Numbered from the stretch's first letter, positions 1 to 18,763 are shown. The stretch: DNA of 18,763 nucleotides from a virus (IMGVR_UViG_2617270943_000005:1-18763), one strand, 5' to 3'. Numbers and translations: made by a program. The notes: generated by a model not told the origin, from the letters alone.

Positions 1-483
1 ATGACGAAGAAAAAAGCACATAAACCTGGTTCAGCGACCATCGCGCTTAACAAGCGCGCCCGTCACGAATACTTTATCGAAGAAGAGTTCGAGGCGGGAC
101 TTGCCCTGCAAGGCTGGGAGGTTAAATCCCTGCGCGCAGGAAAAGCCAATATCAGCGACAGCTACGTCCTTCTGCGTGACGGAGAGGCATTTCTGTTTGG
201 CGCTAACATCACGCCAATGGCTGTGGCATCCACGCATGTGGTGTGCGATCCTACCCGTACCCGCAAGTTACTTCTCAACCAGCGCGAACTGGACTCATTG
301 TACGGTCGCGTCAATCGAGAAGGCTATACCGTAGTGGCGCTCTCCCTGTACTGGAAAAATGCCTGGTGCAAAGTGAAAATCGGCGTCGCTAAAGGTAAGA
401 AACAGCACGATAAACGTTCAGACATTAAAGAACGCGAATGGCAGGTGGATAAAGCGCGTATCATGAAAAACGCCCACCGTTAA
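1..483 (+). CDS. smpB: SsrA-binding protein SmpB, full length (160 aa)
   Basis: ORF 1..483 translates to [30 protein letters not shown]..., which I recognise as enterobacterial SmpB; it lies immediately upstream of the tmRNA gene, the conserved smpB-ssrA synteny. Confidence 0.96.
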
Positions 484-697
484 ATCTGCACTCCAATTAT
501 TGACCAGTTCCTCACCGCGCCACCCTCTCCGGCGGCGCGAATGAACATCTTATTGGCTATCACATCCGCCCCAAATGTTGCCATCCCATTGCTTAATCGA
601 ATAAAAATCAGGCTACACGGGTGCTAAATCTTTAACGATAACGCCATTGAGGCTGGTCATGGCACTCATGAATCTGGTATACTTACCGTTACACATT

Positions 698-1060
698 GGG
701 GCTGATTCTGGATTCGACGGGATTTGCGAAACCCAAGGTGCATGCCGAGGGGCGGTTGGCCTCGTAAAAAGCCGCAAAAAATAGTCGCAAACGACGAAAA
801 CTACGCTTTAGCAGCTTAATAACCTGCTTAGAGCCCTCTCTCCCTAGCCTCCGCTCTTAGGACGGGGATCAAGAGAGGTCAAACCCAAAAGAGATCGCGT
901 GGAAGCCCTGCCTGGGGTTGAAGCGTTAAAACTTAATCAGGCTAGTTTGTTAGTGGCGTGTCCGTCCGCAGCTGGCAAGCGAATGTAAAGACTGACTAAG
1001 CATGTAGTACCGAGGATGTAGGAATTTCGGACGCGGGTTCAACTCCCGCCAGCTCCACCA
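698..1060 (+). ncRNA. ssrA: tmRNA (SsrA), 363 nt
   Basis: 5' end GGGGCTGATTCTGGATTCGACGGG; tag-peptide reading frame GCA AAC GAC GAA AAC TAC GCT TTA GCA GCT TAA (ANDENYALAA) at 787..819; tRNA-like 3' end GGTTCAACTCCCGCCAGCTCCACCA ending at 1060. Confidence 0.96.
1016..1053 (+). repeat. Left copy of 38-bp direct repeat (att core inside ssrA 3' end)
   Basis: ATGTAGGAATTTCGGACGCGGGTTCAACTCCCGCCAGC at 1016..1053 is identical to 14884..14921; the flanks diverge on both sides (CTCCACCA here versus GATTGGACG at the right copy). Confidence 0.85.
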
Positions 1061-1070
1061 AATAAAACAA

Positions 1071-1103
1071 GGGGTTACGTGAAAGCGTAGCCCCTTTTTC
1101 TTT
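1071..1103 (+). terminator. Intrinsic terminator downstream of ssrA
   Basis: GGGGTTACG (1071..1079) pairs with CGTAGCCCC (1086..1094) with one G-U wobble, loop TGAAAG, followed by TTTTTCTTT. Confidence 0.7.
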
Positions 1104-1183
1104 GGTAGTGGCGGCAAAATGGCGACAGACTTTTGCGTCTATCTTGCCTGTCGCCCTCTTGAAATCATGCAAAGAGGTTTCAC

Positions 1184-1828
1184 ATGGAAGAACTTCACTT
1201 TGTTTACATCAATGCAAATGGTCGTACCTACTGGTTTGTGCAATACGGCATGACCACGCAGCCGTATCAGTTCACGAAAGGCAGCATCTTTCATCTGATG
1301 GAACCGGATATTAATCAGGAGATCTACGGGCTGCCCGGCTATCTTTCTGCCATCCCATCCGCTTTGCTCAACGAGTCCGCCACGCTGTTCCGCCGGAAGT
1401 ATTACATTAACGGTAGTCATGCAGGCTTCATCATGTACATGACCGATGCCGCGCAGAACCAGGAGGATGTGAACAACCTCCGCAATGCCATGAAAAGCGC
1501 CAAAGGACCAGGTAACTTCCGCAACCTGTTTATGTACTCGCCTAACGGTAAAAAGGACGGGCTTCAGATTATCCCGTTGTCAGAGGTGGCGGCGAAGGAT
1601 GAGTTTTTGAACATCAAAAACGTGAGCCGGGACGACATGATGGCGGCGCACCGCGTACCGCCGCAAATGATGGGGATTATGCCTAGCAATGTCGGGGGGT
1701 TTGGGGATGTGGAGAAGGCTAGTAAGGTATTCGTAAGAAACGAATTGATGCCCCTGCAGAAACGATTGCAGGAACTAAATAACTGGTTGGACGAAGAAGT
1801 GCTCAATTTTTCAACCTATGAGCTTTAG
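1184..1828 (+). pseudogene. 3' fragment of a phage portal gene (P2 Q-like), N-terminal part missing
   Basis: 214-aa translation (MEELHFVYINANGRTYWFVQYG...GIMPSNVGGFGDVEKASKVF...) resembles the C-terminal portion of PBSX/P2-family portal proteins. The frame opens only 7 codons upstream (in-frame TGA at 1160..1162), about 100 bp from the ssrA junction. It converges on gene A across the cos-like motif, as Q does in P2. Confidence 0.55.
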
Positions 1829-1836
1829 TTTTAAAA

Positions 1837-1856
1837 CGAAGACCATTAGGTCTTCG
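1837..1856. terminator. Bidirectional hairpin terminator between the convergent portal fragment and RT
   Basis: CGAAGACC (1837..1844), loop ATTA, GGTCTTCG (1849..1856): perfect 8-bp stem flanked by AAAA upstream and CTTTATTT downstream, so there is a U-run after the stem on both strands. The RT stop codon (1846..1848) lies in the loop. Confidence 0.6.
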
Positions 1857-2808
1857 CTTTATTTAAAGGGTTCTTTCCATATTTTTTTTCTAATTTGCTA
1901 ATATAAGTTATTAATCTTCTATGGCTTTTTGAATCCACACTTAAAATAAATGACAACCATCCCCTAACGTGTTCTATCTCAGAAGACTTACCGCAAAATA
2001 TATGATGTATCTTTGCTCTAATTTCTTTATATTTTTCTCTACCTATCCCAACTTTCTCTTGTGAAATAACTAAACCTGTAACTTTCCTCTGACTACGAGG
2101 CCCACTAATACAAGTTTTTTTTGAGTTAATAACCAATCCTTCACTTGGGATTATAGAAAATAAAAAATCACGTGCTTTAACAACCTTTTTCATAGACTGT
2201 GCAGATAAGGTGAGATCATCGGCATATCTCGTATATATCAAGCCCCGACTACCTGCATAGCCCTGAATACGATAATCAAGTTTAGAACATATTAGATTAG
2301 CTAATTTAGGTGATGATGGAGCACCTTGTGGTAGCAGATTTTTATAACAACATATTTTTGTCAAAACTGAAGATATTAGTCGATTATAACCAAGAGAATG
2401 GAACACTCCAAAAACTTTGTTAGCAGTTAAACTTGGGAAAAAATCCTCCAAATCAATATTCAGTATAAAGTTTGCCCCAATATGCGGGGTAGCATTATTC
2501 AAAATAGATTGGTGCTTTTCAAATCCAATAGAAAAAGGAGATGACGACAGTTTATCTAAAATGTTACGTAGAACCCATCCTTGTAAGGCTTTAAGTTCTC
2601 GAGAAGGTTGGTAAATGGTTCTCATTCTCTTCTCTGGGCCTTTCTTTTCTACAGTGTAGATCCTATAGCGAAAATCAGCTGTATAGATTAACAACCGAAG
2701 TGTTTCAACAGATATGCGAGTCGCCTTAGACATGTCATGCAAATTGTTCATGACAGGTAGGCCGAGATTTCTCAATCTAAAAGTGTTCAAATATTCAGCG
2801 GATTTCAT
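1846..2808 (-). CDS. ret: Retron reverse transcriptase (320 aa); recognised from memory as the retron Ec86 / Retron-Eco1 RT
   Basis: RT motifs in the translation: LPQGAPSSP, YADD (RYADDLTLS) and the retron-typical VTG (QRKVTGLVIS). ATG at 2808..2806 lies 7 nt downstream of the msr-msd 3' inverted repeat. Length and N-terminus MKSAEYLNTFRLRNLGLPVM match my recollection of the Ec86 RT. Confidence 0.93.
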   Translation of the reverse strand: MKSAEYLNTFRLRNLGLPVMNNLHDMSKATRISVETLRLLIYTADFRYRIYTVEKKGPEKRMRTIYQPSRELKALQGWVLRNILDKLSSSPFSIGFEKHQSILNNATPHIGANFILNIDLEDFFPSLTANKVFGVFHSLGYNRLISSVLTKICCYKNLLPQGAPSSPKLANLICSKLDYRIQGYAGSRGLIYTRYADDLTLSAQSMKKVVKARDFLFSIIPSEGLVINSKKTCISGPRSQRKVTGLVISQEKVGIGREKYKEIRAKIHHIFCGKSSEIEHVRGWLSFILSVDSKSHRRLITYISKLEKKYGKNPLNKAKT

Positions 2809-2814
2809 GAAAGT

Positions 2815-2984
2815 TGCGCACCCTTACGTCAGAAAAAACGGGTTTCCTGGTTGGCTCGGAGAGCATCAGGCGATGCTCTCCGTTCCAACAAGGAAAACAG
2901 ACAGTAACTCAGATTCAATGCAGGATGCCGAAACAACATCCAGAGGTTGACCTTAATGATAAACCTCTCGCTAAGGGTGCGCAT
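2815..2984 (-). ncRNA. msr-msd: Retron msr-msd non-coding RNA (template/primer for msDNA), Ec86-type
   Basis: Minus strand reads ATGCGCACCCTTAGCGAGAGGTTTATCATTAAGGTCAACCTCTGGATGTTGTTTCGGCATCCTGCATTGAATCTGAGTTACTGTCTGTTTTCCTTGTTGGAACGGAGAGCATCGCCTGATGCTCTCCGAGCCAACCAGGAAACCCGTTTTTTCTGACGTAAGGGTGCGCA. Perfect 12-bp a1/a2 inverted repeats at 2972..2983 and 2815..2826; long msd hairpin with an 11-bp tip stem at 2857..2882. Matches the Ec86 ncRNA as I recall it from retron-editing constructs. Confidence 0.9.
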
Positions 2985-3894
2985 ACGGAATCTTATCATA
3001 GTTAAATGTTGATTTTCTACGGTTTTCAAAATTCATAATCTCAAGCCGCAATCGGTCAAGTGTCTTTCTATCAAAGACGCTCCTAACATAGCTAGCCCCC
3101 AAAGCAGTGACCTGATAACCATCAGTCATTTGAAGTATTTTTCGTTCATTTATTAGACGAGAAACAACGGATCTAACAATAATTTTAGATAAAACATCAT
3201 CTTGCTTTATCGCTTTAAAAGCTAGTTCACACAGTGTGCGGTAGTTGACACTATCCAGTAAATAGATACAAGGCAATAGAAACCGCTCTGCGTATAATAT
3301 ATTTCCAATATCTTTTGATACTTTATTTTCTTTCCTAACCTGCTTAATAGATGCCATTAATTTTTTATATAATCGTAATTTTCTGGCAACATCAATAGAT
3401 GAATCACACATTTCTTTTAGTTCATTTGAACTACAACGCAAAACAGATTTTGAATTAAACTTACGCAACAAGCGAACAGGACCATAGTTAATAAAGCTAC
3501 GTTTTGATTTAAATTTTGCATCTTGAATGCAAATCAACTTTCTCCTTAAGTTTTCATTATTAGAGAACGCACCAAGCTCTGTGAAAGACCCCGGACTTTC
3601 AGGAAATAAAATTATTACATCGACAGCTTCAGCCAGAATATTTTCTAAACTTAAAAGGCTATGCTGCCCTTGACCAGCCAAAAGATCATCAAATAGATCT
3701 TCTGGATAAAATATATCAACATCACTGAACTTTGCTAAAAATTGTGATAATTGATGACGCCAAGATTGATGATTAGCAACGTCACCACCACATAGAAAAA
3801 TGGTTATTTTAATATTAGCTCCTCGATAGAAGCCTTTCTTTGTGAGATGTCCTATAAGCTGTTGTTGCTGCTCATCGGTAAATTTTTTATTCAT
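2971..3894 (-). CDS. Retron effector, nucleoside 2-deoxyribosyltransferase (NDT)-like protein with C-terminal extension (about 307 aa)
   Basis: Same strand as, and immediately upstream of, msr-msd and ret. NDT-like features: ANIKITIFLCGGD and VDVIILFPESPGSFTELGAF (candidate catalytic Glu in a DxGxxFExG-like context). Start chosen at ATG 3894..3892 because of the SD GGGGAGA 5 nt upstream; the six-frame ORF extends to 4026 but that N-terminal extension crosses a GC-rich non-coding-looking patch. Stop TAG at 2973..2971 lies inside the msr a1 repeat. Confidence 0.82.
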   Translation of the reverse strand: MNKKFTDEQQQQLIGHLTKKGFYRGANIKITIFLCGGDVANHQSWRHQLSQFLAKFSDVDIFYPEDLFDDLLAGQGQHSLLSLENILAEAVDVIILFPESPGSFTELGAFSNNENLRRKLICIQDAKFKSKRSFINYGPVRLLRKFNSKSVLRCSSNELKEMCDSSIDVARKLRLYKKLMASIKQVRKENKVSKDIGNILYAERFLLPCIYLLDSVNYRTLCELAFKAIKQDDVLSKIIVRSVVSRLINERKILQMTDGYQVTALGASYVRSVFDRKTLDRLRLEIMNFENRRKSTFNYDKIPYAHP

Positions 3895-3966
3895 AATCTC
3901 CCCGCTTTTTTCTACTTTATACATCAAGTTATGAATAGATCCAATCTCCATACCCCATGGCGCGCG

Positions 3967-3985
3967 CTCGTATCCCCGCCACGCC
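3967..3985 (-). other. cos-like motif (possible remnant of P2/186 cohesive-end site)
   Basis: Minus strand 3985..3973 reads GGCGTGGCGGGGA, matching the first 13 nt of the 19-nt P2/186 cohesive end as I recall it (P2 GGCGAGGCGGGGAAAGCAC); it then diverges. It sits in a short GC-rich patch between gene A and the portal fragment, where cos lies in P2. Confidence 0.35.
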
Positions 3986-4237
3986 TGCCCGCTTTGTATA
4001 GCGGTTTTCATGCACTCGCATGGCATAAGGGAAACCTTGCCAGAACTGGCGACCCTCAGCGAAAACGATCTTCAAACGATCATGCGGATTCATGCAGCAT
4101 AGACAGGCACTACTGAGCAATAGCGCTTGAGTTCAGTCAGATATGAGTCCTCAATGTAATACTAATACATCTTAACCGTTCATCATTATTCACATCGGGC
4201 TATGTAATTACAGAAAAACTTTTCACAATCAATTTTA

Positions 4238-4266: not shown

Positions 4267-4305
4267 TCATGACGCATGCAAATTGACATTAATTCAGGAG
4301 ACAAA

Positions 4306-5217
4306 ATGACATTAATTGTAGCTGGTTTCGAAAAAGATGGAACAATTGTTTTTTGCGGGGACTCACTAATAACAACAAAAGCAAATGGAAGCACTGTAAA
4401 ATTGACATCGTCCTTCAGAAAAATAATACCACTAGAAATTATTGTGCGAGTACCGGAAATCGATCCAAGTGGAAAAATCATAAATTACATTGAAAGCCTT
4501 TGCCAACATCGCTGCATGATTGCATTTGCAGGAAGCACGCTAGTTTCTCAACATATTATAAATTCTATACAAGGTCATCTGAAACAAATAAAATACACAT
4601 ATGATTCTGGCACATATGACTATTCAGAAGGATGCATAAAGGGTGCTGGCTATAAGTTAATAATGGGTTGTGAAGATAACAAAAGCGTTGAGGAAACCTA
4701 TTGGAACGAAGATATGTTTGTTGAGCCAGTAAAGAATGCGAACGAACTTATTAATAAAAATTTTCTACGCAACGTCTTTAGCCACTGCATACAGAAAACC
4801 ATGAATGAATTTTACATTAATATTAATGAGGAATTTAATCCAGAGTGGTTTGCAAGCGATTTCATTGTAGCTCTGTCTTGCTATGAGACTAAAAAAAACC
4901 ATCTTTTTACCTTTAAAATGGAATTTAATGAGTCAGGGGTCAATCTTATAGAAAAAGAAATTAATATCAATGAACTGGCAATAATTGGCATTTCAAGATA
5001 TAGCGAAGAAATAATTCAAGCATATCAAACTCAAAAAGCGACCCTCAGTACATCTGAAATTCTCAGCCAAGAGATTACTAAAGCAATCATAGACAATGAA
5101 AGCATTGATCTTAGAGAAATAGGAGATCCTGTCGTATTAAAAAAATTCAATCAACATCGTGAATTACGTGATGAGCAAAAACACTGGAGGTGCAATACTC
5201 CTCGAGAAAACCAATAA
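4306..5217 (+). CDS. Hypothetical protein (303 aa), AT-rich cargo gene in the old/tin-equivalent hotspot; possible Ntn-hydrolase (HslV/proteasome-like) N-terminal domain
   Basis: Long ORF with SD AGGAG (4296..4300) 5 nt before ATG 4306. N-terminus MTLIVAGFEKDGTIVFCGDSLITTKANGSTVKL... has Thr at position 2 and a pattern reminiscent of HslV ([23 protein letters not shown]...K). Codon usage is distinct from the neighbouring phage genes. Family assignment is tentative. Confidence 0.75.
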   Translation: MTLIVAGFEKDGTIVFCGDSLITTKANGSTVKLTSSFRKIIPLEIIVRVPEIDPSGKIINYIESLCQHRCMIAFAGSTLVSQHIINSIQGHLKQIKYTYDSGTYDYSEGCIKGAGYKLIMGCEDNKSVEETYWNEDMFVEPVKNANELINKNFLRNVFSHCIQKTMNEFYININEEFNPEWFASDFIVALSCYETKKNHLFTFKMEFNESGVNLIEKEININELAIIGISRYSEEIIQAYQTQKATLSTSEILSQEITKAIIDNESIDLREIGDPVVLKKFNQHRELRDEQKHWRCNTPRENQ

Positions 5218-5631: not shown

Positions 5632-8073
5632 TTAATACAGGTTCCGCCACTTATCATCTTCCTGCAAACGCTGGTTCCGATAGAAGATTCGCAGGCCTGC
5701 TCCTGACGGAATGCTGCCGCCGCGAAGGAGTAAATCGACCTCTTTCTCGCTGCCATCAAATCCTCTGGACTTCAGTTCATACACGAGCTGCAGTCGCTGA
5801 TGGTCTGTAATTCGCTGTTTGTAGTCTTTACGACGTTTCGGTTTAACCAGGCGTAACCTTGCTACCAGTTCCCGGCGCTCTTTTTTGCTCAGACTGTGCA
5901 GGTATTCGTGCAACTCTTTGTCATCCATGCGGGTGATATCCGTTCTGGTATCCCCATCAGCTGATTTGTTTTTCTCCTGTTGGTTCAAATTTTCAGCAAG
6001 GGGACAGTTATTGCCACGAGTCCAAGGGGCGCAAGCGCCCTGGTCGGCTGCCGCCTCCTGAACGTCAACGGCCTTACGAACCATTTTCCACTTCACTGCA
6101 TGAGTGCAGATCTTGCCCTCTGCAATGGGTGACCAGATGCCATAAATACGAATACCGTGATCGCCATAGGCGGTTGGCTCTTCGTTGATTTCATAAGCGG
6201 TTCTGATGAGGTGATATTTGCGGGGAACCAGTACGCCGCCCTGCTTCATGATGTAGGTGGCAAAACAACCAGCATCAGCAGCAGCCAGGATGGCATCAAG
6301 GCGCGGGTTATCCAGTACCGGCGCACCTGCTTTTTTGTCACCCTGTTGCCTTGCCGCCTGACCAGCCAGCAATCGCAGTTCACGGTAAGCCTGACGCCCC
6401 GGAATGCCAAAGAAGCGGAATTGCTGAACACGATGCAGAGACGCCCAGGCATTAACGTATTCAGCGTTATCACACAGGGATTTCCCCGTTTCCTTACTGA
6501 TCTCGCCAGCCAGACCACGTCCGTCAATATTCTTACTGATATATTTCGCAATGTAGCTTGTCGGCGTTCCTTTGCGCGGGTTTATCAGCTCAGACTTAAA
6601 GCGTGGCCCCGTGTTATTGCCCAGCTCCTCGCGGTCTTCACGGATGGCAAACTTACGCAACAATGCAGTAATGGCGCGGCGGTCTTTTTTGCGCATGAAA
6701 CACAACAGGTGCCAGTGAACTGTGCCGTCATGATGCGGCTCAGCCACCCGCACGCCATACCAGCGCAACCCGGCTTTGTGCATAGCCTTACGAAATGCAG
6801 CAAACATGCCGACCAGATAATCACTGCTTTGTCTTACTGTCGCGTTGGTCCAGGTCGGGTTTGGCCTGCCGTTATTTAGCGTGGAATGGAAACGTGACGG
6901 ACAGGTGATGGTGTAGAAAACGGCGCAGTCACCGCGCATTTCCGCGATAAGCTCCAGACCTTTAACACAGGCCATCATCTCATTGCGGCGATGCGCAGGG
7001 TTGCTGCTGCTGGCGTTTACCACATCCTCCATGTCCAGCGTGTCGCCGTCTTCGTTCACCAGTTCATGAGAACGAAAAAACTCCAGCGACTTACGGCGCT
7101 GCTCACGTTTATGCATCACGGCTTCATAGCTGACATAGGGAGATGCTTTTTTGCTGACCAGGCAAACAGCACGCAACTGCTCTTCCCGCCATTCGCAACG
7201 CATCTTCCATAATTTCCGGTACCACCAGTCGGCGCACAACATACGCGCCAGCGAACCCGGAATGAGTTCATAGGGCACGGGTTTACGGCGGTTTCTTTTC
7301 CGGCGGAGTTGCTCAAACGCAGGCGGGATGACATCCAGACGCAGGGTTTCCGCTGCCATCTTTTCCCATGTCTTGCGGATTTCTTCTGGCTTAACGTCAT
7401 CGGTGACATACAAATCGCCACAAGCTGCATCAAGGCACATGCTCATATGCGCAGCGACAAGGGTAGACAAACGTTTCACCTGATCCTGACTCATTTCAGG
7501 CAGGATCAGCAGGCCGTCCAGCCCTTCATGGCTTGCCATAAAGCGAAAAGAAGTGGATAGCTGACTGTCGCGTACATGCTCCAGTCGTTCCAGACATGGC
7601 TTAATCGTCTCACGCAAATAGCGGGAATAAGCCTTTGGCCTGCCCAGGCTGCTGAAGTATTCAATACGTTGCATCAGCGGCTTGCTGATATGGGAAGGCT
7701 GGGCATTGACGTCCGCCAGAATGACCATATCTGGATTAAAACGCTGCTGCTCATGCGCCAGCTTTGCCCGGCTAATGAGCTTATCCTGCTCCATTTCGCG
7801 TTGGACAGGATCACGGGATTCATTAAAGAAATAACGCTCCCAGACCTGATCACTCAGTGCCTCGCGGCGCAGTTGTTCCTGCTCGTTATCGGCAGCGTAC
7901 AGAGTGATCAGGTTTGAAAGCGCAGAAATCGGCGCAACTTCCGCCGGGTCCAGATAAGGGTTAATGGCTTTCTTAGGTAAATTCCACGAATAACCCCCGG
8001 CAGAATTCTCAATGCTACCGGAAGTTACACTGACAAATGGATCGGCAAGACGGCCTGTGCTGATCTCTGTCAC
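5632..8073 (-). CDS. A: Phage replication initiation endonuclease (P2 gpA family), 813 aa
   Basis: Large ORF whose translation I recognise as the P2/186 replication protein A family. GTG start at 8073..8071 overlaps the TGA stop of the upstream gene (GTGA); SD AGGAG 7 nt upstream. Confidence 0.88.
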
Positions 8074-9080
8074 TCACAGACTCCTGCATATACACTGCTG
8101 CACACCGCTTTATCATTCATGCCTGCCAGCAGGTCAAACTGCATACCGCCCCGAGTCGTTAAGGCCCAGTCCCGATAAGTTTCAATGCCATAAGCATCAA
8201 CAGTTATGACTTCGATCCGTTTTTCAGCACGGCGCGGATCATGCGTGGATGGAAAGAACGTTGAATTGCCATGTCTTGAACATTCCGCAACCAGTCTTTC
8301 CCACTCAGCCACTCGGCGGATTTCTTCTGGCCAGCGTTGGAAAATCTCAGCAAGTTCTGACTTGCGAGCATGAATACATGGCATACAACCGACACGACTG
8401 CATCCCTGCATATAAAGGGGGTTAGGCTTAATGCCATGACGTTTGGCAATAGCAAACACATCCTCATGCAGCCAATTAAGGATCGGACGATAAACATGCA
8501 GGCCCAGAGTATTGTCTGCATCGTCCTCCCACTCAGGCAACAATGCACGTTCCGGTGATTCCTGCCCCCGGACTCCTTGCCAGCTGATTACCTCATCGTA
8601 TTTATCCAGAGCCGGATCGATTACCTGTGTACGTATTGGTTCATGTTTCAGTTCAAAAGTGCAGAAACGAGCTTTTGTTGAAGGGAAGCGACCTTTCCAC
8701 ATGCACAAATCAAGAAACGGAACGCCGGTTGGTTTAAGGATTTCCAGTGCCCGGTAAATACGTTCCTCAGCCTCATCTGTCGACATACCACATTCCTCAA
8801 CGAGAGAAATGGGCCACTTTTCCGCAATGAATTTACGTTTCCCTTCTATCTGGCGTGTGAAATCCGCTTTGACGCGAATAATCTTGCCCAGCTTTGATTC
8901 CAGATAATCCAGATATTCTATTGTCTGTGGATGTTCATGACCCGTATCGGCAAATACAGAAATATGCGGAACATCGTTTTCAATGGCTCTTAGCCATTGA
9001 GCGAGACTATCTTTGCCACCAGAAGTAGTGATGATGTTAATGGTGCTTGAGGCAAAGCAACGCGGATCGATAGCATTCAT
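8070..9080 (-). CDS. Phosphoadenosine-phosphosulfate (PAPS) reductase-like family protein, 336 aa
   Basis: N-terminal ITTSGGKDS is the PP-loop (SGGxDS) typical of PAPS reductase / ATP-pyrophosphatase-fold proteins; ATG 9080 overlaps the dam stop (ATGA); SD GAGG present. Confidence 0.8.
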
Positions 9081-9925
9081 GAGCGTACCTCAACGGTACG
9101 GTCAGAGCCGCTGGCAAAATCGACACCAAACCACCCAGCTGATTTGGTGGCAATGATTTCTGCTGCAGATTTACTCTCGCCAGCTGACACGCCGATGCTG
9201 CGTTTTGCCTTGATGTAGTAGTGAGTGAAATTGCGATACAGCGAACGAATCAGGGATGTGTCACTGTTAGAAACAATGACCGGATGACCTTCAGATGATC
9301 GATGTTCAAGAACGGATGCCAGGTGATACTGGTCATCTTCAGTGAAGCCATCAGTGTGATAGCCGGAAAACGTACCGTCATAAGGCGGATCGCAATACAC
9401 CACATCCCCCGCCTTCAACATCGCCAGCGTTTCATCAAAGCTGGCGCAGATAAACGTTGCCCGCTGGGCTTTCTCTGCAAATGCGCGAATTTCTTTTTCA
9501 GGGAAATACGGATTTTTATAATTACCGTAGGGAATGTTGAAATACCCGCTCTTGTTATAGCGACATAACCCACGATAACCATGACGATTGAGATACAGAA
9601 AATATACCGCTTTCATGAAATCAGTAATTTCAGTGGAGTAATTAAACTCCTGCCTTATGTTGTAATAAGCCACCTCCCTGTTTGCTTCCTCAAATAAAGC
9701 TCTGGCACGAGATATAAACGCCTCACAATCAGCAGCAACCTTTTTATAGAGGTTGATTAAATCAGGATTAATATCCGCAACAAGATAGCTGGGGTAATCC
9801 GTCTCCATCATCACTGCACAGGAACCCGCGAAAGGTTCAACCAGTCGCGGGCCAGCAGGAAGATGCTTTTTCAGTTCGGACATTATGGCGGTTTTATTTC
9901 CCGCCCATTTCAGGATGGTGCTCAT
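9077..9925 (-). CDS. dam: DNA N6-adenine methyltransferase (Dam family), 282 aa
   Basis: Motifs [16 protein letters not shown] and DPPY (VYCDPPYDG). Start chosen at ATG 9925 (SD GGAGG; overlaps the stop of the upstream gene, ATGA) rather than the longer six-frame ORF starting at 9985. Confidence 0.88.
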
Positions 9926-10149
9926 ACAGCACCTCCGTTGTAATGTTTGCCTTTCAGCTCTGCGATTTCCTGACAGGTAATGCAAAGCTGCACACCCGGA
10001 ATGGCACGACGGCGTGCTGGCGGAATTGGCGCTTCACACTCAACGCAAAGCACGCGGGACACGCCCGGCGTTTTGGCACGGGCAGCACGGATATGACGTT
10101 GGCGTTCTTCTTCAACTCGCTGCTGTACGAGATCCATTGCATCAGCCAT
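9922..10149 (-). CDS. TraR/DksA-family C4 zinc-finger protein, 75 aa
   Basis: CVEC-x17-CITC four-cysteine finger in a 75-aa protein, typical of small phage TraR/DksA-like proteins; start overlaps the upstream stop (TGATG). Confidence 0.82.
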   Translation of the reverse strand: MADAMDLVQQRVEEERQRHIRAARAKTPGVSRVLCVECEAPIPPARRRAIPGVQLCITCQEIAELKGKHYNGGAV

Positions 10150-10382
10150 CAGTGGATCTCCTGCGCTTCGTTCTGGATTGCTTCAGCAGTCACACGCAGC
10201 AGTTCTGCCGCTTCGACGTGGTTTAACTGGCGGGATGTGATATGACACGCCAGGCGATCAAGGCGAGCTGCCATTGCTTCAGCCCTTGCCCGGCGTTCTT
10301 CCAGACGAGCCTCTGTCAGTAAAATATTAAGCCCTGCGTCATCCGGTCCGGTTTTAGTCGTGAAGGTTTCAATATTACGCAT
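10149..10382 (-). CDS. Hypothetical phage early protein, 77 aa
   Basis: ORF in the translationally coupled early operon; start at ATG 10382 with SD AGGAG 8 nt upstream (the six-frame call begins at an upstream TTG). Confidence 0.55.
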   Translation of the reverse strand: MRNIETFTTKTGPDDAGLNILLTEARLEERRARAEAMAARLDRLACHITSRQLNHVEAAELLRVTAEAIQNEAQEIH

Positions 10383-13527: not shown

Positions 13528-14766
13528 ATGGTTATTGAAACTAAAAGCAAAAAAATATCAAAAGTTGCGTTAAAAAGGCTTTTTAACACTATTTTAAAAA
13601 AATCCTCAATTCGTCCTCCTATAGAAGTTGGCAAAAATAATGACCTAATTACTGATTTCTCTGCAAAATGTGAAAAATTTAAAGATTGCCTGAAAGAATA
13701 CATAGAAAACAATAATGATGATATCTTAGCAAGAAGAGTTAAGAGCAGATTAAAAGTTATTGAGTCCGTGCAAGAAGGCATAATAAATTGTTTGGAATGC
13801 TTTCTTTCCGGAGATATCAAGTCAGCGTATGATTCTTTTGAGGAAATGCTTGAGCCAGATTTTGTATCAAGGCATATTAAAAATATTTGCATACCTTTAT
13901 CTGAAAAGTGTGGTAATAACAAGCGTCTATTTAGAGTCAGGAAATCCGAACGCCCTTTATCAACAAGAAAAGATATCTTTCATATTCCTTTCAATCAGCG
14001 CCATCTGGTTAGTGCACAACGCTACTCAGTTGCAGGTCTTCCGTGCCTTTATTTAGGAACTTCATTGTATATCTGCTGGCGAGAAATGGACAAACCCGAT
14101 TTTGATAAGTTATATATATCATCATTTACCACTAGCTCAGAGAATAATGAATCGCTACTATTAGATTTTAGTGCTGATTTCCTTTATAAAACGAAGCTAT
14201 TCTTTACATCTAAAAAAGAACATTCTTCAGCAAAAGAGCTTTCTTCGGTCACAATGTTATCATACCTCGCATTATGGCCTTTAATAATCGCATGCAATTA
14301 TTTAAAAAAACATAGCAATGCATCTTTCATTCAGGAATATATAATACCAAACTTACTTATGCAGTGGATAAGCAGGGATATTAACGATTACAACATTGTT
14401 GGAATTGCTTATCGTTCAACAAAACTACCTGCAAATGCTGATAGTGAGAGAGGGGTCAATGTCGTTCTTCCTCCAAAAATTCGTTACGAAGACATGAAGG
14501 TTAACGAATTCTGCCCAGAACTCTCCGGCTTATTTCACTGTACCCCACCAGTATCATGGCAGGTTCTAAAAACTCTTGAATATGTACCATTGCGTCAATC
14601 CTTCTCAGATAGAGAGATATTGAGTGACGAGCTCAGGAACAAAAAGCTCTGGGATATAATGGGCAATCTTGATGATGAAATTTTGAGCATTTATAAATTA
14701 TCTGACTTTTACAAGCTTGAAGTTTGTATGGATGAAATCCAAGTCCATAACGACATAAACACATAA
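13528..14766 (+). CDS. RES-domain-like protein (412 aa), AT-rich cargo between int and the right att repeat
   Basis: Segment RLFRVRKSERP...QRYSVAGLPCLYLGTSLYICWRE fits the RES-domain pattern (Arg ... G-x-P-x-LY-x-x-S ... E). Strong compositional shift to AT-rich immediately after the int stop. Confidence 0.65.
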   Translation: MVIETKSKKISKVALKRLFNTILKKSSIRPPIEVGKNNDLITDFSAKCEKFKDCLKEYIENNNDDILARRVKSRLKVIESVQEGIINCLECFLSGDIKSAYDSFEEMLEPDFVSRHIKNICIPLSEKCGNNKRLFRVRKSERPLSTRKDIFHIPFNQRHLVSAQRYSVAGLPCLYLGTSLYICWREMDKPDFDKLYISSFTTSSENNESLLLDFSADFLYKTKLFFTSKKEHSSAKELSSVTMLSYLALWPLIIACNYLKKHSNASFIQEYIIPNLLMQWISRDINDYNIVGIAYRSTKLPANADSERGVNVVLPPKIRYEDMKVNEFCPELSGLFHCTPPVSWQVLKTLEYVPLRQSFSDREILSDELRNKKLWDIMGNLDDEILSIYKLSDFYKLEVCMDEIQVHNDINT

Positions 14767-15076: not shown

Positions 15077-18000
15077 TCAGAACGACCAGTTCACACCAGC
15101 CACCGCGTTCCACGGGGATTCCACACCGGCACCATGGCTATACCCCACCCCGAGATGCCCGCTTAACGAACTGCTGAATGAGGCTTTAATACCTGCCTGG
15201 TATATTCCACGTCTGCCCGACAAATCATTGACAAAATTACCGTCATTATTCACTTTCACCCGGTTATCATCGACAAATTCTTTGCGCACAGCCGCCTTCA
15301 GCCACGGCTCAACTTCCATGCCGTTCCCCAGACGCATGTTGTAACTCAGCGTTGCGCCCAGTTCACGATATATACTGCGAGTATCGACTGATTTCGATTC
15401 CATACCATTGGATAAATGATATTCGGGGTTATCAGCGGTGAACCCCGTTAAAGATGCATACGGCGTCAGGTTCCAGTTACCATCGGTAAATCGCATCCCG
15501 GTTTCAATGTGACCGCCCAGCCCGTTGCTGCGATAACTGCCGTTGGCGGCTCCACCGCTGCTCATTTTACCGGCTACGTTACTTTCAAAGCGGTTCAGCT
15601 TCACGATACCGTCCAGATAGAAACCACTTTCATGTTCCCAGCTGACATAGCCCCCCAGAGAATAACTGCCCACACTGCCATGTCCTCCACGATCAAAACC
15701 GATATGTGAATGGGAATAACCCATAAAAGCGCCCAGCGTCGCAATCCCCTCAGGAATACCATTACGGCTATCGATCCCCACCGTCATTCCGGTCAGCGTC
15801 TGCTCAAACCCGGCACCCGCATCGGTGGTGACATTATTACGGGTGTTATACGTCGTCCCCCAGACATTATTGTTGTGTGGACTCGCTTTCATTATGTTCA
15901 ACCGCTCGCGAATACTGTTTAGCTCAGCATCAAAGACCAACGGTAATGTTGCTGCCATATTGAGTACGGCTGCCGTAGAAGGCGTGATGCGTTTCTCCGG
16001 GACGGGTGTCGGCGTTGGATCGGGAGTCGGGTCTGGTTTCGGATCCGGTTTTGGGTCTGGTTTTGGATCCGGTTTCGGATTTGGGTTGGGGTCCGGGTTG
16101 GGTTTGACATCATTGGTCAGGTTCCAGTTGCTGTTGCCGTCGCTTTTCAGGACATACTCATAGGTCCCAAGATCAACGAAACCGCCGGTATTACCCAGCG
16201 TAAACGAAGCATCCCCTCCCCCTGTTTTCACCAGCGTCATCGCGTCGTCAGACTGAGGGCTGACGCCGGTATCCTGAACAAAGATTTTAAAATTGCCAGT
16301 GGCGTTGTTGTTGACGACCAGTTGATCGCCCCGGGAGCCTGCAACGTTGGTATGCAGGTAGAAATTACCGCTGCCGGAAAGTTCACTGGTGGTCAGCGTA
16401 TTGTAGATACCGTTAGTTGTGGCAGGCGCTGCTGTTTGTGCTGATAAATAAACATCACCGTCGTTGAGGAGCAAACTGTTTACTCTATATTCGCAGTTGC
16501 TGGTGCCTGCACAGGAATTATTGCTGTTAAGCCAGACACTGCCCCGGCTGGCAGCCGTCAGGTCGGCAAGCGTCGTATCGACGCCATTTCCGATAGTTAA
16601 TGTCGCGCTATCGGTAATCCGGACCACCCCTTCAAGTTTAACTGGCGTAACATTATCCCGTGGCGTCATTAACGACAGGCTTCCTGTCGCGCCACTGACC
16701 GATGCATCCGCCAGCGTACCTGCGTAGACGATTGCCGTCCCGCCAGCGACCTGTAGATCTTCTGCCCGGGCCAGAGCCTGAAACTCATCTTTTGACCGAC
16801 CAAGGGTATATTGCCCACCGGAATTAACCTTTGTGGCGAAGTCCTGACCCAGGTTTTGCATTGCCCCACCGTTGCCAACCGTGGAATCGCGAGCTTCGGT
16901 ACCTGCTAATACCAATAAATTACCGCCATTTTCCAGCAGCACATTGGTCGCTAAATTTCCGGCAATGGAAAAGGTGCCGTACTGGTGAGTACCGCTGATT
17001 TCAATACCGTTAGCCGTGCTCGTCTGGAGAGCGGCACCGCTGTTCTGGATGATATCTGTCGCTTTGCCATTATCGTTGACTGTCAGCGTACCGCCTTCAT
17101 TAATCGTTGTTTTTACTGCCTCACCGTTAGCCGAAACTGTTTGTATTCCGCCGTCGTTAATCGTTGTCTCATTCGCCACACCCTCGACGATTTGTTCACC
17201 GCCGGTAAGCATCGTGCCAGTCGCAGTGGCTTTTGTTTTGACGATCTCCCGTCCGCCCGCATTGACCTGTGTTTTGGCGGAAGTGGTGTCTGACTCCACG
17301 GTTAACACGCCGCCATTTGCCAGCAGGATATTGTTCGCCGCATCCTGCTCGATGCTGAACGCGACGCCATCAGCGCGTGTCCCTGTGACCCGCGTCGCCC
17401 TGGTGGTTGCCACCAACGCGCCCTGGCTACTCTGCTGTATCCCCGTAGCGCTGCCTTTCTCCCGCACATCGAGTGTGCCGCCGTCATTAAGTACCGAGTT
17501 TTCAGCCAGACCGCCCTCATTAACTACCTGTGAACCGCCATTAATAATGGAACCTTCCGCTGTCCCGTTTGCCATAATTTGTTGTAGGCCAGAGGCGATA
17601 TCGGTATTGATCGCCTTACCATAATTCTGAACGGTTTGCGTGCCGCCTTTGATGTGCGTTTTATCTGTTGACCCACCATCAACAATTTGTTCACCACTTT
17701 CGATATTTGCCTCAGTGGCTAAACCATATACCGTTTGCTTGCCACCTTTGATATTTGCTTTATCAGAAGTGGCACTGGCATATATTGTTTGGGTGCCCGC
17801 ACTATTGAGTACAGTGCCAACATCTTTTCCATAAACATCCATTTTGCCGTTGGCATTAATAATCGTATCAACTGCCCGGGAACCAGTAACGACTGTTAAT
17901 GAGCCAGCGTTTTCCAGCACTACATTTTTAGCTTCTGAATTCCTGATGTAGAAAGCATCACCATAACTGTTGGTTCCTTCGATAAGTGTTCCGGAAGTCG

Positions 18001-18763
18001 TGGAAGCAATTAATGCGCCGCCGGATTGTTGCTCAACATGCTTAGCCTCACCACCGTCCTGAACCTCCAGAACGCCACCATTATTAAGTCTGGTGGTATC
18101 TGTTTTAGCCTCCTTCTGGACAATCAGCTTACCGCCAGCATCAACGGTAGTATTTTTCGCCGTGGTTTTAGCCACTACCGTCAGTTCGCCGGTATTTTCC
18201 AGCACAACATAATTAGCCTCCCCTCCGGTAATAGTGAAGTGAGAGAGCTTGTTGTATCCTTCAATATCAGTCCCTGCGCCCGTGTTGGCAACTAAAGCAC
18301 TGCCCGTCTCCTGGTTAACCCCATGTGCGATACCACCGGTATAGACAATCAGCGAGCCTCCGGTGCTAATATTGCTGCCAGTTGCCGTACCATCTTTCTC
18401 AACAACCTGCCGGCTCCCGGAGGAGATATTTGTCGTGTCAGCTTTCCCGCCGCTCTTGATATTTTGTGTTCCGCTGTTGATATTGGTTCCCGTGGCAATA
18501 CCATGATTATTTATATTCTGTGTGCCACCATTAATGATGGTATTTGTCGCGTTTCCGGCAACATCCATAACGCCGCCATTATCTATTCGGGTCGCATCAG
18601 CTTTAGCATTCGTTAAAACTGACATTGTTCCGTTATCTTTAATAATCGTCTTATTTGCCGAACCATATACGTCTAAATGACCACCGTTTTCCAGCAACAC
18701 ATTGTCTGCCACGTTATTGTGAATAGAGAATGCCCCTTCACTATTCGTACCGCTCACCGTCGA
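15077..18763 (-). CDS. Autotransporter adhesin (AIDA-I/Ag43-type; YpjA-like by position), partial; N-terminus beyond window
   Basis: ORF open to the window end. Repetitive passenger with G/N/T-rich beta-helix-like repeats, a Pro-rich linker (PNPDPNPNPKPDPKPDP...) and a C-terminal beta-barrel ending ...GVNWSF (terminal aromatic). Confidence 0.85.
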   Translation of the reverse strand, partial: STVSGTNSEGAFSIHNNVADNVLLENGGHLDVYGSANKTIIKDNGTMSVLTNAKADATRIDNGGVMDVAGNATNTIINGGTQNINNHGIATGTNINSGTQNIKSGGKADTTNISSGSRQVVEKDGTATGSNISTGGSLIVYTGGIAHGVNQETGSALVANTGAGTDIEGYNKLSHFTITGGEANYVVLENTGELTVVAKTTAKNTTVDAGGKLIVQKEAKTDTTRLNNGGVLEVQDGGEAKHVEQQSGGALIASTTSGTLIEGTNSYGDAFYIRNSEAKNVVLENAGSLTVVTGSRAVDTIINANGKMDVYGKDVGTVLNSAGTQTIYASATSDKANIKGGKQTVYGLATEANIESGEQIVDGGSTDKTHIKGGTQTVQNYGKAINTDIASGLQQIMANGTAEGSIINGGSQVVNEGGLAENSVLNDGGTLDVREKGSATGIQQSSQGALVATTRATRVTGTRADGVAFSIEQDAANNILLANGGVLTVESDTTSAKTQVNAGGREIVKTKATATGTMLTGGEQIVEGVANETTINDGGIQTVSANGEAVKTTINEGGTLTVNDNGKATDIIQNSGAALQTSTANGIEISGTHQYGTFSIAGNLATNVLLENGGNLLVLAGTEARDSTVGNGGAMQNLGQDFATKVNSGGQYTLGRSKDEFQALARAEDLQVAGGTAIVYAGTLADASVSGATGSLSLMTPRDNVTPVKLEGVVRITDSATLTIGNGVDTTLADLTAASRGSVWLNSNNSCAGTSNCEYRVNSLLLNDGDVYLSAQTAAPATTNGIYNTLTTSELSGSGNFYLHTNVAGSRGDQLVVNNNATGNFKIFVQDTGVSPQSDDAMTLVKTGGGDASFTLGNTGGFVDLGTYEYVLKSDGNSNWNLTNDVKPNPDPNPNPKPDPKPDPKPDPKPDPTPDPTPTPVPEKRITPSTAAVLNMAATLPLVFDAELNSIRERLNIMKASPHNNNVWGTTYNTRNNVTTDAGAGFEQTLTGMTVGIDSRNGIPEGIATLGAFMGYSHSHIGFDRGGHGSVGSYSLGGYVSWEHESGFYLDGIVKLNRFESNVAGKMSSGGAANGSYRSNGLGGHIETGMRFTDGNWNLTPYASLTGFTADNPEYHLSNGMESKSVDTRSIYRELGATLSYNMRLGNGMEVEPWLKAAVRKEFVDDNRVKVNNDGNFVNDLSGRRGIYQAGIKASFSSSLSGHLGVGYSHGAGVESPWNAVAGVNWSF
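16000..16105. repeat. Tandem 12-nt repeats encoding the (K/T)PDP linker of the autotransporter
   Basis: GGATCCGGTTTT / GGGTCTGGTTTT / GGATCCGGTTTC-type units; the other frames give artefactual GSGFGSG and RIRNQT ORFs. Confidence 0.6.

What the first reader, a model, noticed from the sequence alone, without database searches (positions are those of the whole stretch)
8070..10152. Translationally coupled early operon carrying Dam methyltransferase and a PAPS-reductase-like gene directly upstream of replication gene A
Four consecutive genes (77-aa ORF, TraR/DksA-like, dam, PAPS-reductase-like, then A) are joined by overlapping stop/start codons (TGATG, ATGA, ATGA, GTGA). PAPS-reductase-fold proteins are used in DNA-modification pathways (DndC in phosphorothioation, BrxP-type proteins in BREX variants). 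A Dam plus PAPS-reductase-like pair expressed with the replication gene could be an anti-restriction or self-marking module.
Basis: partly seen in the sequence, partly recalled or inferred. Interest (0 to 1): 0.5.

Follow-up and report, generated by a model that had tools for sequence, protein, structure and literature searches.

The report
Ordinary phage-186-type early operon
This is the standard early replication operon of a phage-186-like prophage, in which a DNA methylase gene and a long-known but uncharacterised 'PAPS-reductase-like' gene (186 orf84) happen to lie side by side. The two genes occur independently of each other in related phages, so they are not a dedicated two-gene module.

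Summary
On the minus strand, DUF2732 (77 aa), TraR/DksA (75 aa), Dam (282 aa), a PAPS_reduct-domain protein (336 aa) and replication gene A are joined by TGATG, ATGA, ATGA and GTGA overlaps.

It is not new. The 336-aa protein is the orthologue (82% aa identity) of phage 186 Orf84, in the same position with the same 4-nt overlap onto A. The 186 GenBank record says Orf84 is non-essential and that translation to its end appears necessary for A translation.

Dam and Orf84 assort independently:
- All 76 closest A-gene relatives carry Dam; only 5 carry Orf84.
- Orf84 homologues sit behind Dam, TraR, DUF5405, ParB-like or ASCH-like genes.
- Phage 186 itself has Orf84 without Dam.

It has a canonical SGGKDS PP-loop and five near-invariant cysteines (C140, C232xxC235, C327, C335). 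This points to an ATP-using, probably Fe-S sulfur-transfer enzyme rather than a true PAPS reductase. It fails the DndC and CysH model cut-offs and lacks BrxP's length and coverage.

An anti-defence or DNA-modification role is plausible, given MTase neighbours in distant phages and a published Vibrio-phage PAPS-Dam fusion with anti-Dnd activity. It is untested here. Interest is low to moderate.

The parts
10149..10382 (-). DUF2732 ORF (homologue of phage 186 Orf79), 77 aa from ATG 10382. First gene of the coupled block; its stop overlaps the TraR start (TGATG).
   Evidence: Pfam DUF2732 98 bits; phrog_128; junction read; PGAP annotates the same 77-aa protein in E. coli EC416.
9922..10149 (-). 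TraR/DksA-type C4 zinc-finger protein, 75 aa (homologue of 186 Orf80).
   Evidence: Pfam zf-dskA_traR 43 bits; TIGR02419 67.1 bits against cut-off 59.7; phrog_54.
9077..9925 (-). Dam-family N6-adenine DNA methyltransferase, 282 aa, with the DPPY motif present. It occupies the variable slot between TraR and the gene before A.
   Evidence: MethyltransfD12 258 bits over the full profile; TIGR00571 322.5 bits against cut-off 114.85; PADLOC orphan MTase 367 bits. Present in 76/76 closest A-allele relatives and in 1257/5426 E. coli genomes.
8070..9080 (-). Orthologue of phage 186 Orf84: a PAPS-reductase-fold PP-loop ATP pyrophosphatase-like protein, 336 aa. It carries SGGKDS (residues 20-25), conserved C140, C232xxC235, and a C-terminal C327...C335-E.
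   Evidence: PF01507 117 bits; phrog_424 278 bits; 82% aa identity to 186 Orf84. Motif conservation. AF2 model pLDDT 76.8. Best folds are APS/PAPS reductases, CysD, the FAD-synthase PAPS domain and TtuA.
5632..8073 (-). Replication gene A (rolling-circle initiator endonuclease), 813 aa. Its GTG start overlaps the Orf84-like stop (GTGA).
   Evidence: Phage_GPA 425 bits; sole start codon in the first 50 codons, preceded by AGGAG.
7960..8075 (-). Strongly structured RNA at the 5' end of gene A: two hairpins beginning right after the GTG. It lies at roughly the position of the 186 tM1 terminator, and it may be why A translation depends on ribosomes arriving from the upstream ORF.
   Evidence: MFE -37.6 kcal/mol against a shuffle mean of -26.9, z = -2.9, 2/200 shuffles as stable. 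The 186 annotation of tM1 and of orf84>A coupling is. The functional reading is inference.
9124..9150 (-). 10-bp hairpin in the 3' end of dam, at the point where homology to the dam of Klebsiella Kapieceevirus phages (dam directly before A) stops. This is a mosaic joint.
   Evidence: Homology starts at query position 1081 = window 9150. Hairpin; its fold is not significantly more stable than shuffles (z = -0.8).

Best explanation
The region is the distal half of the early lytic (pR) operon of a phage-186-type prophage remnant: DUF2732 - TraR/DksA - Dam - Orf84-like - A.

Genes are read by ribosomes that terminate and restart at overlapping stop/start codons. A in particular, with its weak GTG start followed by a strong RNA structure, is probably translated only by ribosomes arriving from the upstream ORF, as recorded for 186 orf84>A.

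Dam is the default resident of this lineage. The Orf84-like gene is a separately exchanged cassette that always sits immediately before A. The two are neighbours through mosaic recombination at gene boundaries, not because they form an obligate pair.

The Orf84-like protein is an accessory, non-essential enzyme. It has a canonical ATP-binding PP-loop, an APS-reductase-like cysteine triad that probably holds a [4Fe-4S] cluster, and two conserved cysteines on a flexible C-terminal tail.

My committed mechanism is as follows. It uses ATP to adenylate a substrate and transfers sulfur, the same kind of chemistry as DndC, SspD and the TtuA class. It acts on newly replicated phage DNA, or on the host's sulfur-based DNA-marking machinery, to help the phage escape host defence.

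Shown: gene identities, overlaps, orthology to 186 Orf84, independent assortment, and motif conservation. Inferred: the Fe-S cluster, the sulfur-transfer chemistry, the nucleic-acid target and the anti-defence role.
For: - Identities and overlaps.
- Orthology and synteny with 186 Orf84, plus the GenBank note 'not essential; translation to end of orf84 appears necessary for translation of A protein'.
- RNA structure at the A start, z = -2.9.
- Independent assortment: Dam 76/76 against PAPS 5/76 among the closest A alleles. The gene immediately upstream of PAPS in 78 viral loci is Dam 25, TraR 11, DUF5405 11 and others 31, including ParB-HTH and DUF3850/ASCH. E. coli genomes: 38 carry PAPS, of which 24 are behind Dam and 14 carry a 73%-nt allele; the two of those inspected have DUF5405 upstream.
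- Recombination joints lie exactly at the ATGA boundary.
- Enzyme features across 150 cluster representatives at 38-80% identity: S20 132/134, G22 134/134, D24 132/134, C140 149/149, C232 143/146, C235 138/146, C327 129/136, C335 134/136.
- C232xxC235 aligns with the Fe-S CxxC of M. tuberculosis APS reductase, whereas that reductase has no SGGKDS at the PP-loop position.
- PADLOC: SspD 82 bits, BrxP 44, DndC 24.
- Link to DNA modification: DNA methyltransferases directly adjacent in phiE125, Rivra and SFCi1, and within 3 genes in Parlo, S1 and Alfacinha1. ParB is adjacent in phiE125 and about 2 kb upstream in Riah.
- Published anti-Dnd activity of a two-gene Vibrio-phage region that includes a PAPS-Dam fusion, and PAPS reductases found in Aca-regulated anti-defence operons.
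Against: - No experiment exists on this family beyond 'non-essential' in 186.
- Known phosphorothioation needs a partner P-loop NTPase and a DNA-recognition subunit. None is encoded next to this gene.
- No DNA-binding domain is recognisable in the protein.
- The protein misses the curated DndC cut-off by a wide margin (17.5 against 290 bits).
- The Vibrio PAPS domain was not recovered by tblastn at E <= 1e-5, so its relationship to this subfamily is only at superfamily level.
- Methyltransferases are common in temperate-phage early regions, so adjacency in 6 of 10 lineages is suggestive, not significant.
- Some E. coli copies are frameshifted, which shows the gene is dispensable in lysogens.
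Confidence: 0.6

Rival explanations
1. One reading: Dam and the PAPS-reductase-like protein form a dedicated two-enzyme self-marking or anti-restriction module that works together on phage DNA.
For: The genes are adjacent and translationally coupled here and in 24 E. coli genomes. A PAPS-Dam fusion protein exists in Vibrio phages and is linked to anti-Dnd activity. In Rivra and phiE125 an MTase overlaps the PAPS gene.
Against: Dam is universal in this lineage (76/76) and the PAPS gene is rare (5/76). PAPS alleles 88-99% identical (aa) occur directly behind TraR with no Dam upstream. Phage 186, P37 and 14 E. coli prophages have PAPS without Dam. The neighbouring MTases in other phages belong to unrelated classes (N4C, C5, Dam), so no specific partner is conserved. 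Fusions are rare among close homologues: of 10 long representatives scanned, only one had a sub-threshold methyltransferase-domain hit.
Confidence: 0.1
2. The ORF matters mainly in cis: it delivers ribosomes to the poorly initiating A start and so sets the A dose. The protein's enzymatic activity is irrelevant to the phage.
For: The 186 annotation says translation to the end of orf84 is needed for A translation and that the gene is non-essential. A has a GTG start followed by strong RNA structure. The gene always lies immediately before A in P2/186-like phages.
Against: Any upstream ORF does this job: Dam is directly before A in 71/76 relatives. The catalytic motifs and five cysteines are almost invariant over 150 clusters down to 38% identity. 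Homologues persist in unrelated phages that have no gene A downstream. Both facts indicate selection on the protein itself.
Confidence: 0.12
3. It is a genuine sulfonucleotide (PAPS/APS) reductase, an auxiliary metabolic gene that boosts host sulfur assimilation.
For: Database names; the best NCBIfam and PDB sequence hits are CysH/APS reductases; the best folds are APS/PAPS reductases. Some authors read phage PAPS reductases this way.
Against: All CysH/APS-reductase models score far below cut-off: 63.8 against 154, 48.8 against 235, 36.7 against 165, 34.5 against 254. The protein keeps the ATP-type SGGKDS loop, which the aligned M. tuberculosis APS reductase lacks. From my own knowledge, E. 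coli CysH has SSSFG there. There is a roughly 50-aa insertion and a 100-aa C-terminal extension. The gene lies in a replication operon expressed only in lytic growth.
Confidence: 0.04
4. It is an ATP-dependent modifier of something other than DNA, for example thiolation of tRNA or modification of a nucleotide or small-molecule immune signal.
For: Structural neighbours include the [4Fe-4S] tRNA thiolases TtuA/NcsA, TilS, ThiI, and the CBASS-associated Cap9. No DNA-binding domain is recognisable.
Against: The gene lies in replication or recombination modules and recurs next to DNA methyltransferases, ParB-like and ASCH/DUF3850 genes. The closest defence-library profiles are the DNA phosphorothioation enzymes.
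Confidence: 0.14

Closest known systems
Phage 186 Orf84 (CP84) and the 186 early lytic operon Orf79-Orf80-Orf81-Orf83-Orf84-A
   Same: 82% aa identity over the full length. Same position immediately upstream of A with a 4-nt stop/start overlap. Same flanking DUF2732 and TraR/DksA genes, and the same CII, Fil and CI-type switch nearby.
   Different: 186 has Orf81 and Orf83 (DUF5405) where this window has Dam. The A alleles differ (813 aa here against 694 aa; the window's A N-terminal 28 aa also differ from the Klebsiella A allele, and the 186 A N-terminus shares no recognisable similarity).
DndC / SspD / BrxP, the PAPS-reductase-domain enzymes of DNA phosphorothioation (Dnd, Ssp, BREX type 4)
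   Same: PP-loop ATP pyrophosphatase core of the same Pfam family. Domain-level hits: SspD 82 bits, BrxP 44, DndC 24. Conserved cysteines are compatible with an Fe-S cluster; that DndC is an Fe-S protein is from my own knowledge.
   Different: Below the curated DndC cut-off (17.5 against 290 bits). It is stand-alone, with no DndA/D/E, SspB/C or BrxC/Z/L neighbours and no DUF4007 domain. It is phage-encoded and expressed with replication genes. It has its own C-terminal C-x7-C-E tail.
Vibrio crassostreae podophage p0018, a PAPS-domain + Dam-domain fusion (Piel et al. 2022; preprint 10.1101/2021.05.05.442762)
   Same: A phage gene product that combines a PAPS-reductase domain with an adenine methyltransferase. 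Transfer of p0018 together with the adjacent p0019 gave escape from host Dnd.
   Different: There it is a single fused polypeptide with a short (about 175 aa) PAPS domain and a different Dam domain family. Here there are two separate genes that assort independently. No sequence match was found at E <= 1e-5 in the phage collection.
Assimilatory APS reductase (P. aeruginosa 2goy, M. tuberculosis 7lhr) and PAPS reductase CysH (1sur)
   Different: It retains the ATP-type SGGKDS loop. It has an extra helical insertion (about residues 75-130) and a 100-aa C-terminal region. Scores are far below the family cut-offs.
Dam of 186-like retron prophages (retron-Ec67 element, Hsu et al. 1990 PNAS 87:9454; title seen, content from my own knowledge)
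   Same: A Dam methylase encoded in a 186-like prophage that also carries a retron. This window likewise has a type II-A retron a few kb away.
   Different: The retron type differs (II-A, 320-aa RT). That paper could not be read here.
IbrA/IbrB-type pairs (PAPS-reductase-like protein + ParB-like protein; own knowledge)
   Same: Some P2/186-like relatives carry a ParB-HTH protein directly upstream of the Orf84 homologue (L054, L055). phiE125 has ParB directly downstream.
   Different: This window has no ParB-like gene. Homology to IbrA itself was not tested.

Membership tests
Phage 186 Orf84 family (PHROG 424) | Full-length sequence similarity to 186 Orf84 | tested here: met
   82% aa identity over residues 4-336; phrog_424 278 bits.
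Phage 186 Orf84 family (PHROG 424) | Position immediately upstream of replication gene A with overlapping stop/start | tested here: met
   GTGA overlap here; 4-nt overlap in 186, P37 and E. coli C11; A lies downstream in most of the 78 related loci where downstream sequence was available.
PAPS_reduct superfamily (PF01507), PP-loop ATPases | Domain score above the gathering threshold, and a PP-loop SGGxDS | tested here: met
   117.4 bits against 22.5; SGGKDS at residues 20-25, conserved in >93% of 134 homologues; fold confirmed.
CysH PAPS reductase / APS reductase | Score above the curated cut-off of the equivalog or subfamily models | tested here: not met
   NF002537 63.8 against 154; TIGR02055 48.8 against 235.3; TIGR00434 36.7 against 165.1; TIGR02057 34.5 against 254.2.
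CysH PAPS reductase / APS reductase | Reduction of PAPS/APS with thioredoxin | not testable with these tools
   Needs an enzyme assay or cysH complementation.
DndC (DNA phosphorothioation sulfurtransferase) | Score above the TIGR03183 cut-off | tested here: not met
   17.5 bits against 290.4; PADLOC DndC 24 bits over about 80 residues only.
DndC (DNA phosphorothioation sulfurtransferase) | Operon with dndB/D/E (and dndA) | tested here: not met
   The neighbours are TraR, Dam and A. No ABC ATPase or DndE-like gene was found among the window ORFs of 90 aa or more that were scanned.
SspD (Ssp system) | Similarity to the SspD profile | tested here: inconclusive
   81.9 bits in two stretches, covering profile positions 71-203 of 277. 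The library gives no cut-off, and the score is well below the PHROG 424 match.
SspD (Ssp system) | Neighbouring sspB and sspC | tested here: not met
   Absent from the window.
BrxP (BREX type 4) | About 780-aa protein with PAPS domain plus DUF4007, next to brxC/Z/L | tested here: not met
   Only profile positions 212-334 of 779 match, at 43.7 bits. The protein is 336 aa and there are no brx neighbours.
Dam family (GATC-type N6-adenine MTase, D12 class) | Score above the TIGR00571 cut-off, full-length D12 domain, DPPY motif | tested here: met
   322.5 bits against 114.85; PF02086 positions 1-253 of 253; 'CDPPYDG' read in the translation. GATC specificity itself is not testable here.
Anti-Dnd PAPS-Dam fusion of Vibrio phages | Single polypeptide with an N-terminal PAPS domain and a C-terminal Dam domain | tested here: not met
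   There are two separate ORFs with their own stop and start codons.
Anti-Dnd PAPS-Dam fusion of Vibrio phages | Confers escape from Dnd | not testable with these tools
   Needs plating assays.

The most novel reading that the evidence does not exclude
Orf84-family proteins are stand-alone phage enzymes with a PP-loop, a [4Fe-4S] cluster and a C-terminal cysteine tail. Without DndD/E-type partners, they either put a sulfur-based mark on replicating phage DNA or sabotage the host's phosphorothioate-based immunity (Dnd, Ssp, BREX type 4). On this reading, the slot just upstream of them in P2/186-like phages is a swap-in toolkit of DNA-mark writers and readers (Dam, ParB-like, ASCH/DUF3850).
Probability: 0.25. 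Interest if true: 0.65.

Novelty: already known. Interest (0 to 1): 0.28.

Why it matters
For genome annotation the region is routine: it is the 186-type early operon, and sequences 98-99% identical are already annotated in RefSeq E. coli genomes.

The one open point is the biochemical role of Orf84. This gene has been known in a model phage since 1990, belongs to a large phage family (PHROG 424; 343 clusters at E <= 1e-30) and is still labelled only 'PAPS reductase family'.

If it proves to be a self-sufficient DNA sulfur-modifying or anti-phosphorothioation enzyme, it would add a counter-defence class. It would also correct the common reading of phage 'PAPS reductases' as sulfur-metabolism genes. 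Phage 186 offers a ready genetic system for the test.

Tried and rejected
- A second homologue search with a profile of divergent phage homologues returned almost the same close relatives, so it added little diversity for the structure alignment.
- Pfam scans of 10 unusually long family members looked for domain fusions. Only one weak, sub-threshold methyltransferase-like N-terminus was found (P0267), so there is no Rosetta-stone support within this subfamily.
- GATC count in the window is ordinary: 57 against 68.7 +/- 7.3 expected. There is no sign of Dam-site avoidance or enrichment.
- The terminator scan did not find an equivalent of 186 tR1 upstream of the DUF2732 gene, and the intergenic fold is unremarkable. 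The hairpin in the dam 3' end is not significantly more stable than shuffles.
- Literature searches for a function of 186 orf84, for IbrA/IbrB and for phage PAPS reductases as anti-defence genes found no direct experiment on this subfamily. Hsu et al. 1990 could not be opened.
- I considered and rejected the idea that the PAPS cassette carries a shared upstream leader. Homology between Dam-context and TraR-context loci stops exactly at the ATG.

Full report
**1. Observation**

The ORFs in the finding lie on the minus strand:
- DUF2732 protein, 10149-10382 (77 aa from ATG; the ORF extends to TTG 10388)
- TraR/DksA zinc-finger protein, 9922-10149 (75 aa)
- Dam, 9077-9925 (282 aa)
- PAPS_reduct-domain protein, 8070-9080 (336 aa)
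- gene A, 5632-8073 (813 aa)

Family assignments are unambiguous: MethyltransfD12 258 bits and TIGR00571 322.5 bits (cut-off 114.85); PF01507 117 bits (cut-off 22.5); TIGR02419 67.1 bits (cut-off 59.7); DUF2732 98 bits; Phage_GPA 425 bits. The GTG at 8073 is the only possible start in the first 50 codons of A and follows an AGGAG.

**2. What the region is**

The surrounding genes are CII (PF06892), a DUF5347 protein, a CI repressor, an integrase and gene A; the Fil gene is annotated at the matching position in the near-identical prophage of E. coli EC416. DNA matches point the same way, so this is a phage-186-type (P2-like, Peduoviridae) prophage.

The decisive result is that the 336-aa protein is the orthologue of phage 186 Orf84. 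It shares 82% aa identity over the full length. In 186 the gene also lies directly before A with a 4-nt overlap, downstream of the same DUF2732 (Orf79) and TraR/DksA (Orf80) genes. The 186 GenBank record annotates Orf79-Orf84 as 'unknown function; not essential'. For Orf84 it adds 'translation to end of orf84 appears necessary for translation of A protein', and it marks a terminator (tM1) just inside A that acts when A is not translated.

In the window, the first 115 nt of the A message fold into two strong hairpins (-37.6 kcal/mol, z = -2.9, 2 of 200 shuffles as stable). That fits the same design: a weak, structured start that is served by ribosomes terminating at the upstream stop codon. This functional reading is inferred here and documented only for 186.

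**3. Are Dam and the PAPS-like gene a pair?**

The comparative data say no.

- E. coli complete genomes. 1257 of 5426 match the TraR-Dam segment, but only 24 carry the full Dam + PAPS arrangement. 38 genomes carry the PAPS-like gene at all. Of these, 24 have the window's allele next to Dam and 14 have a 73%-nt allele; the two of those inspected have DUF5405 upstream, and one of them is frameshifted.
- Closest relatives of this A allele. Among the 76 IMG/VR contigs (>=96% aa) with enough upstream sequence, all 76 have Dam and only 5 have the PAPS-like gene. Dam is therefore the lineage's default gene before A, as in Klebsiella Kapieceevirus phages. The PAPS-like gene is an insertion between Dam and A.
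- Contigs carrying a PAPS homologue. Among 78 IMG/VR contigs with a homologue of >=70% identity, the gene immediately upstream is Dam in 25, TraR in 11, DUF5405 in 11 and something else in 31. The 'something else' includes a ParB-HTH protein (L054, L055) and DUF3850/ASCH proteins (L029, L088, L091).
- Same allele, different neighbours. PAPS alleles 88-99% identical (aa) occur directly behind Dam or directly behind TraR. Homology between the two contexts stops exactly at the ATG of the ATGA overlap, while it continues downstream into A.

So the cassette is linked to A, not to Dam. The overlapping stop/start codons are the operon's general grammar, preserved by recombination at gene boundaries. 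Phage 186 and Yersinia phage P37 carry the gene without any Dam in the early operon.

**4. What the 336-aa protein is likely to do**

- Motifs. The canonical PP-loop SGGKDS (residues 20-25) is present and almost invariant. So are C140 (149/149), C232 (143/146), C235 (138/146), C327 (129/136) and C335 (134/136), across 150 cluster representatives at 38-80% identity. C126 is kept in 82%.
- Comparison with true reductases. The VGC232-x-P-C235 motif aligns with the Fe-S-binding CxxC of M. tuberculosis APS reductase. At the PP-loop position that enzyme has no SGGKDS. From my own knowledge, E. coli CysH has SSSFG there and binds PAPS, not ATP.
- Structure. The AlphaFold model (pLDDT 76.8) has a confident core (residues 1-265). 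Confidence is low only around the cysteine loops and the C-terminal 270-336, as expected for a metal site and a mobile tail.
- Curated models. They exclude membership of CysH/APS reductase (63.8 against 154 bits and others) and of DndC (17.5 against 290 bits). In PADLOC the best profiles are SspD (82 bits), BrxP (44) and DndC (24), all at domain level.

My reading is an ATP-dependent adenylating enzyme with a probable [4Fe-4S] cluster and a cysteine-bearing tail. That is sulfur-transfer chemistry of the DndC, SspD and TtuA kind, not sulfonucleotide reduction. The Fe-S cluster, the sulfur chemistry and the substrate are inferences.

**5. Evidence on its biological role**

- Gene neighbours. In ten distantly related phages (25-46% aa identity), a DNA methyltransferase is directly adjacent in three: phiE125 (overlapping N4C-type MTase upstream, ParB downstream), Rivra (MTases overlapping on both sides) and SFCi1.
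- An MTase lies within three genes in three more: Parlo (dam), S1 and Alfacinha1 (C5 MTase).
- Riah has ParB about 2 kb upstream.
- The other three (Vibrio 1.047.O, BcepB1A, phi458) place the gene among primase, helicase or recombination genes.
- Published work. A Vibrio crassostreae podophage protein fusing a PAPS domain to a Dam domain, moved together with its neighbour gene into a sensitive phage, gave escape from the host Dnd system (preprint of Piel et al. 2022).
- A 2026 survey found PAPS reductases in Aca-regulated anti-defence operons.
- Against a self-sufficient phosphorothioation enzyme. Known systems require a PAPS-domain protein plus a P-loop NTPase and a DNA-recognition subunit. 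None accompanies this gene.

So an anti-defence or DNA-modification role is the best-supported hypothesis. It remains untested for this subfamily. The methyltransferase adjacency is suggestive rather than statistically established.

**6. Comparison with what is known, and novelty**

- The operon is the 186 early operon with a different occupant (Dam) in its variable slot.
- Sequences 98-99% identical are already annotated by PGAP in E. coli genomes as 'phosphoadenosine phosphosulfate reductase family protein | DNA adenine methylase | TraR/DksA | DUF2732'.
- A Dam in a 186-like retron prophage has been known since Hsu et al. 1990. I saw the title; the content is from my own knowledge, and the paper was not readable.
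- I found no paper assigning a function to Orf84.

I therefore rate the finding as already known in structure. One real open question remains, the biochemistry of Orf84, and this window does not particularly illuminate it.

**7. Context noticed**

- The window starts with smpB and ssrA (tmRNA 698-1060).
- Next come a truncated portal fragment, a type II-A retron (NDT effector 2971-4026 and RT 1846-2808) and an unknown ORF.
- The A-to-integrase early region follows.
- After it come an unknown 412-aa ORF and an AIDA/Ag43-type autotransporter.
- Within the window the prophage is a remnant without late genes, yet all early-operon ORFs are intact.

**8. Verdict**

- The gene identities and the operon architecture are close to certain.
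- Independent assortment of Dam and Orf84 is well supported.
- The enzymatic and anti-defence role of Orf84 is plausible, at about 0.4.
- The 'pair' model is unlikely, at about 0.1.

Interest is 0.28.

Noticed in passing
window 1846-4026 (minus strand): Type II-A retron. The NDT-like effector (2971-4026, 351 aa, PADLOC NDT_II-A 313 bits) lies upstream of a 320-aa reverse transcriptase (1846-2808, RT_II-A 424 bits; Pfam RVT_1). This resembles retron Ec86/Eco1 or Sen2. Rfam found no msr/msd at gathering threshold, so the ncRNA (expected upstream of 4026 or in the 2809-2970 gap) was not located.
   Followed up: partly
window 1-1828: smpB (1-483) and ssrA tmRNA (698-1060, 296 bits) are followed directly by a 214-aa fragment of a phage portal gene (1184-1828). 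Within the window the prophage is a remnant lacking capsid, tail and lysis genes, and it abuts ssrA.
   Followed up: partly
window 4276-5217 (+) and 13528-14766 (+): Two sizeable ORFs (313 aa and 412 aa) have no Pfam or PADLOC match. One lies between the retron and gene A, the other just outside the integrase. Both positions are typical for cargo or defence genes of P2-like prophages.
   Followed up: partly
window 15077-18757 (minus strand): 1226-aa AIDA/Ag43-type autotransporter adhesin (AIDA repeats, Pertactin, Autotransporter beta-domain), adjacent to the prophage remnant.
   Followed up: no
window 7960-8075 (minus strand): Unusually stable RNA structure at the very start of gene A (z = -2.9). 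It lies at roughly the position of the tM1 terminator annotated in phage 186, and it may enforce dependence of A translation on the upstream ORF.
   Followed up: partly
L054 2593-3498, L055 2605-3504; L029 2956-3504; L088 and L091 3199-3459: In other P2/186-like viral contigs, the slot immediately upstream of the Orf84 homologue holds a ParB-HTH protein (an IbrB/IbrA-like pairing) or a DUF3850/ASCH-fold protein. Both domain types are associated with DNA or modified nucleic acids. E. coli 2012C-4502 also has a DUF3850 gene inserted in this operon (H35).
   Followed up: partly
L010 2213-3592 (Acidovorax phage Alfacinha1 gp49): This Orf84 homologue is 459 aa. It has an extra N-terminal domain of about 95 aa and a large insertion in the helical region. 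By eye the N-terminal sequence looks ASCH/PUA-like, but this was not tested.
   Followed up: no
L007 3501-4509 (E. coli strain 4/0): The Orf84 homologue is annotated as frameshifted in this lysogen (8 other genomes share its 73.2% allele but were not inspected), yet the downstream A gene is intact. This copy could be used to see whether A expression survives loss of upstream translation.
   Followed up: no
L094 1-137 (Vibrio phage 1.047.O): A 'CP83' (186 Orf83, DUF5405) homologue lies about 2 kb from a short-form PAPS-reductase-like gene in an unrelated Vibrio phage. This hints that DUF5405 and PAPS-like genes travel together beyond P2-like phages.
   Followed up: no
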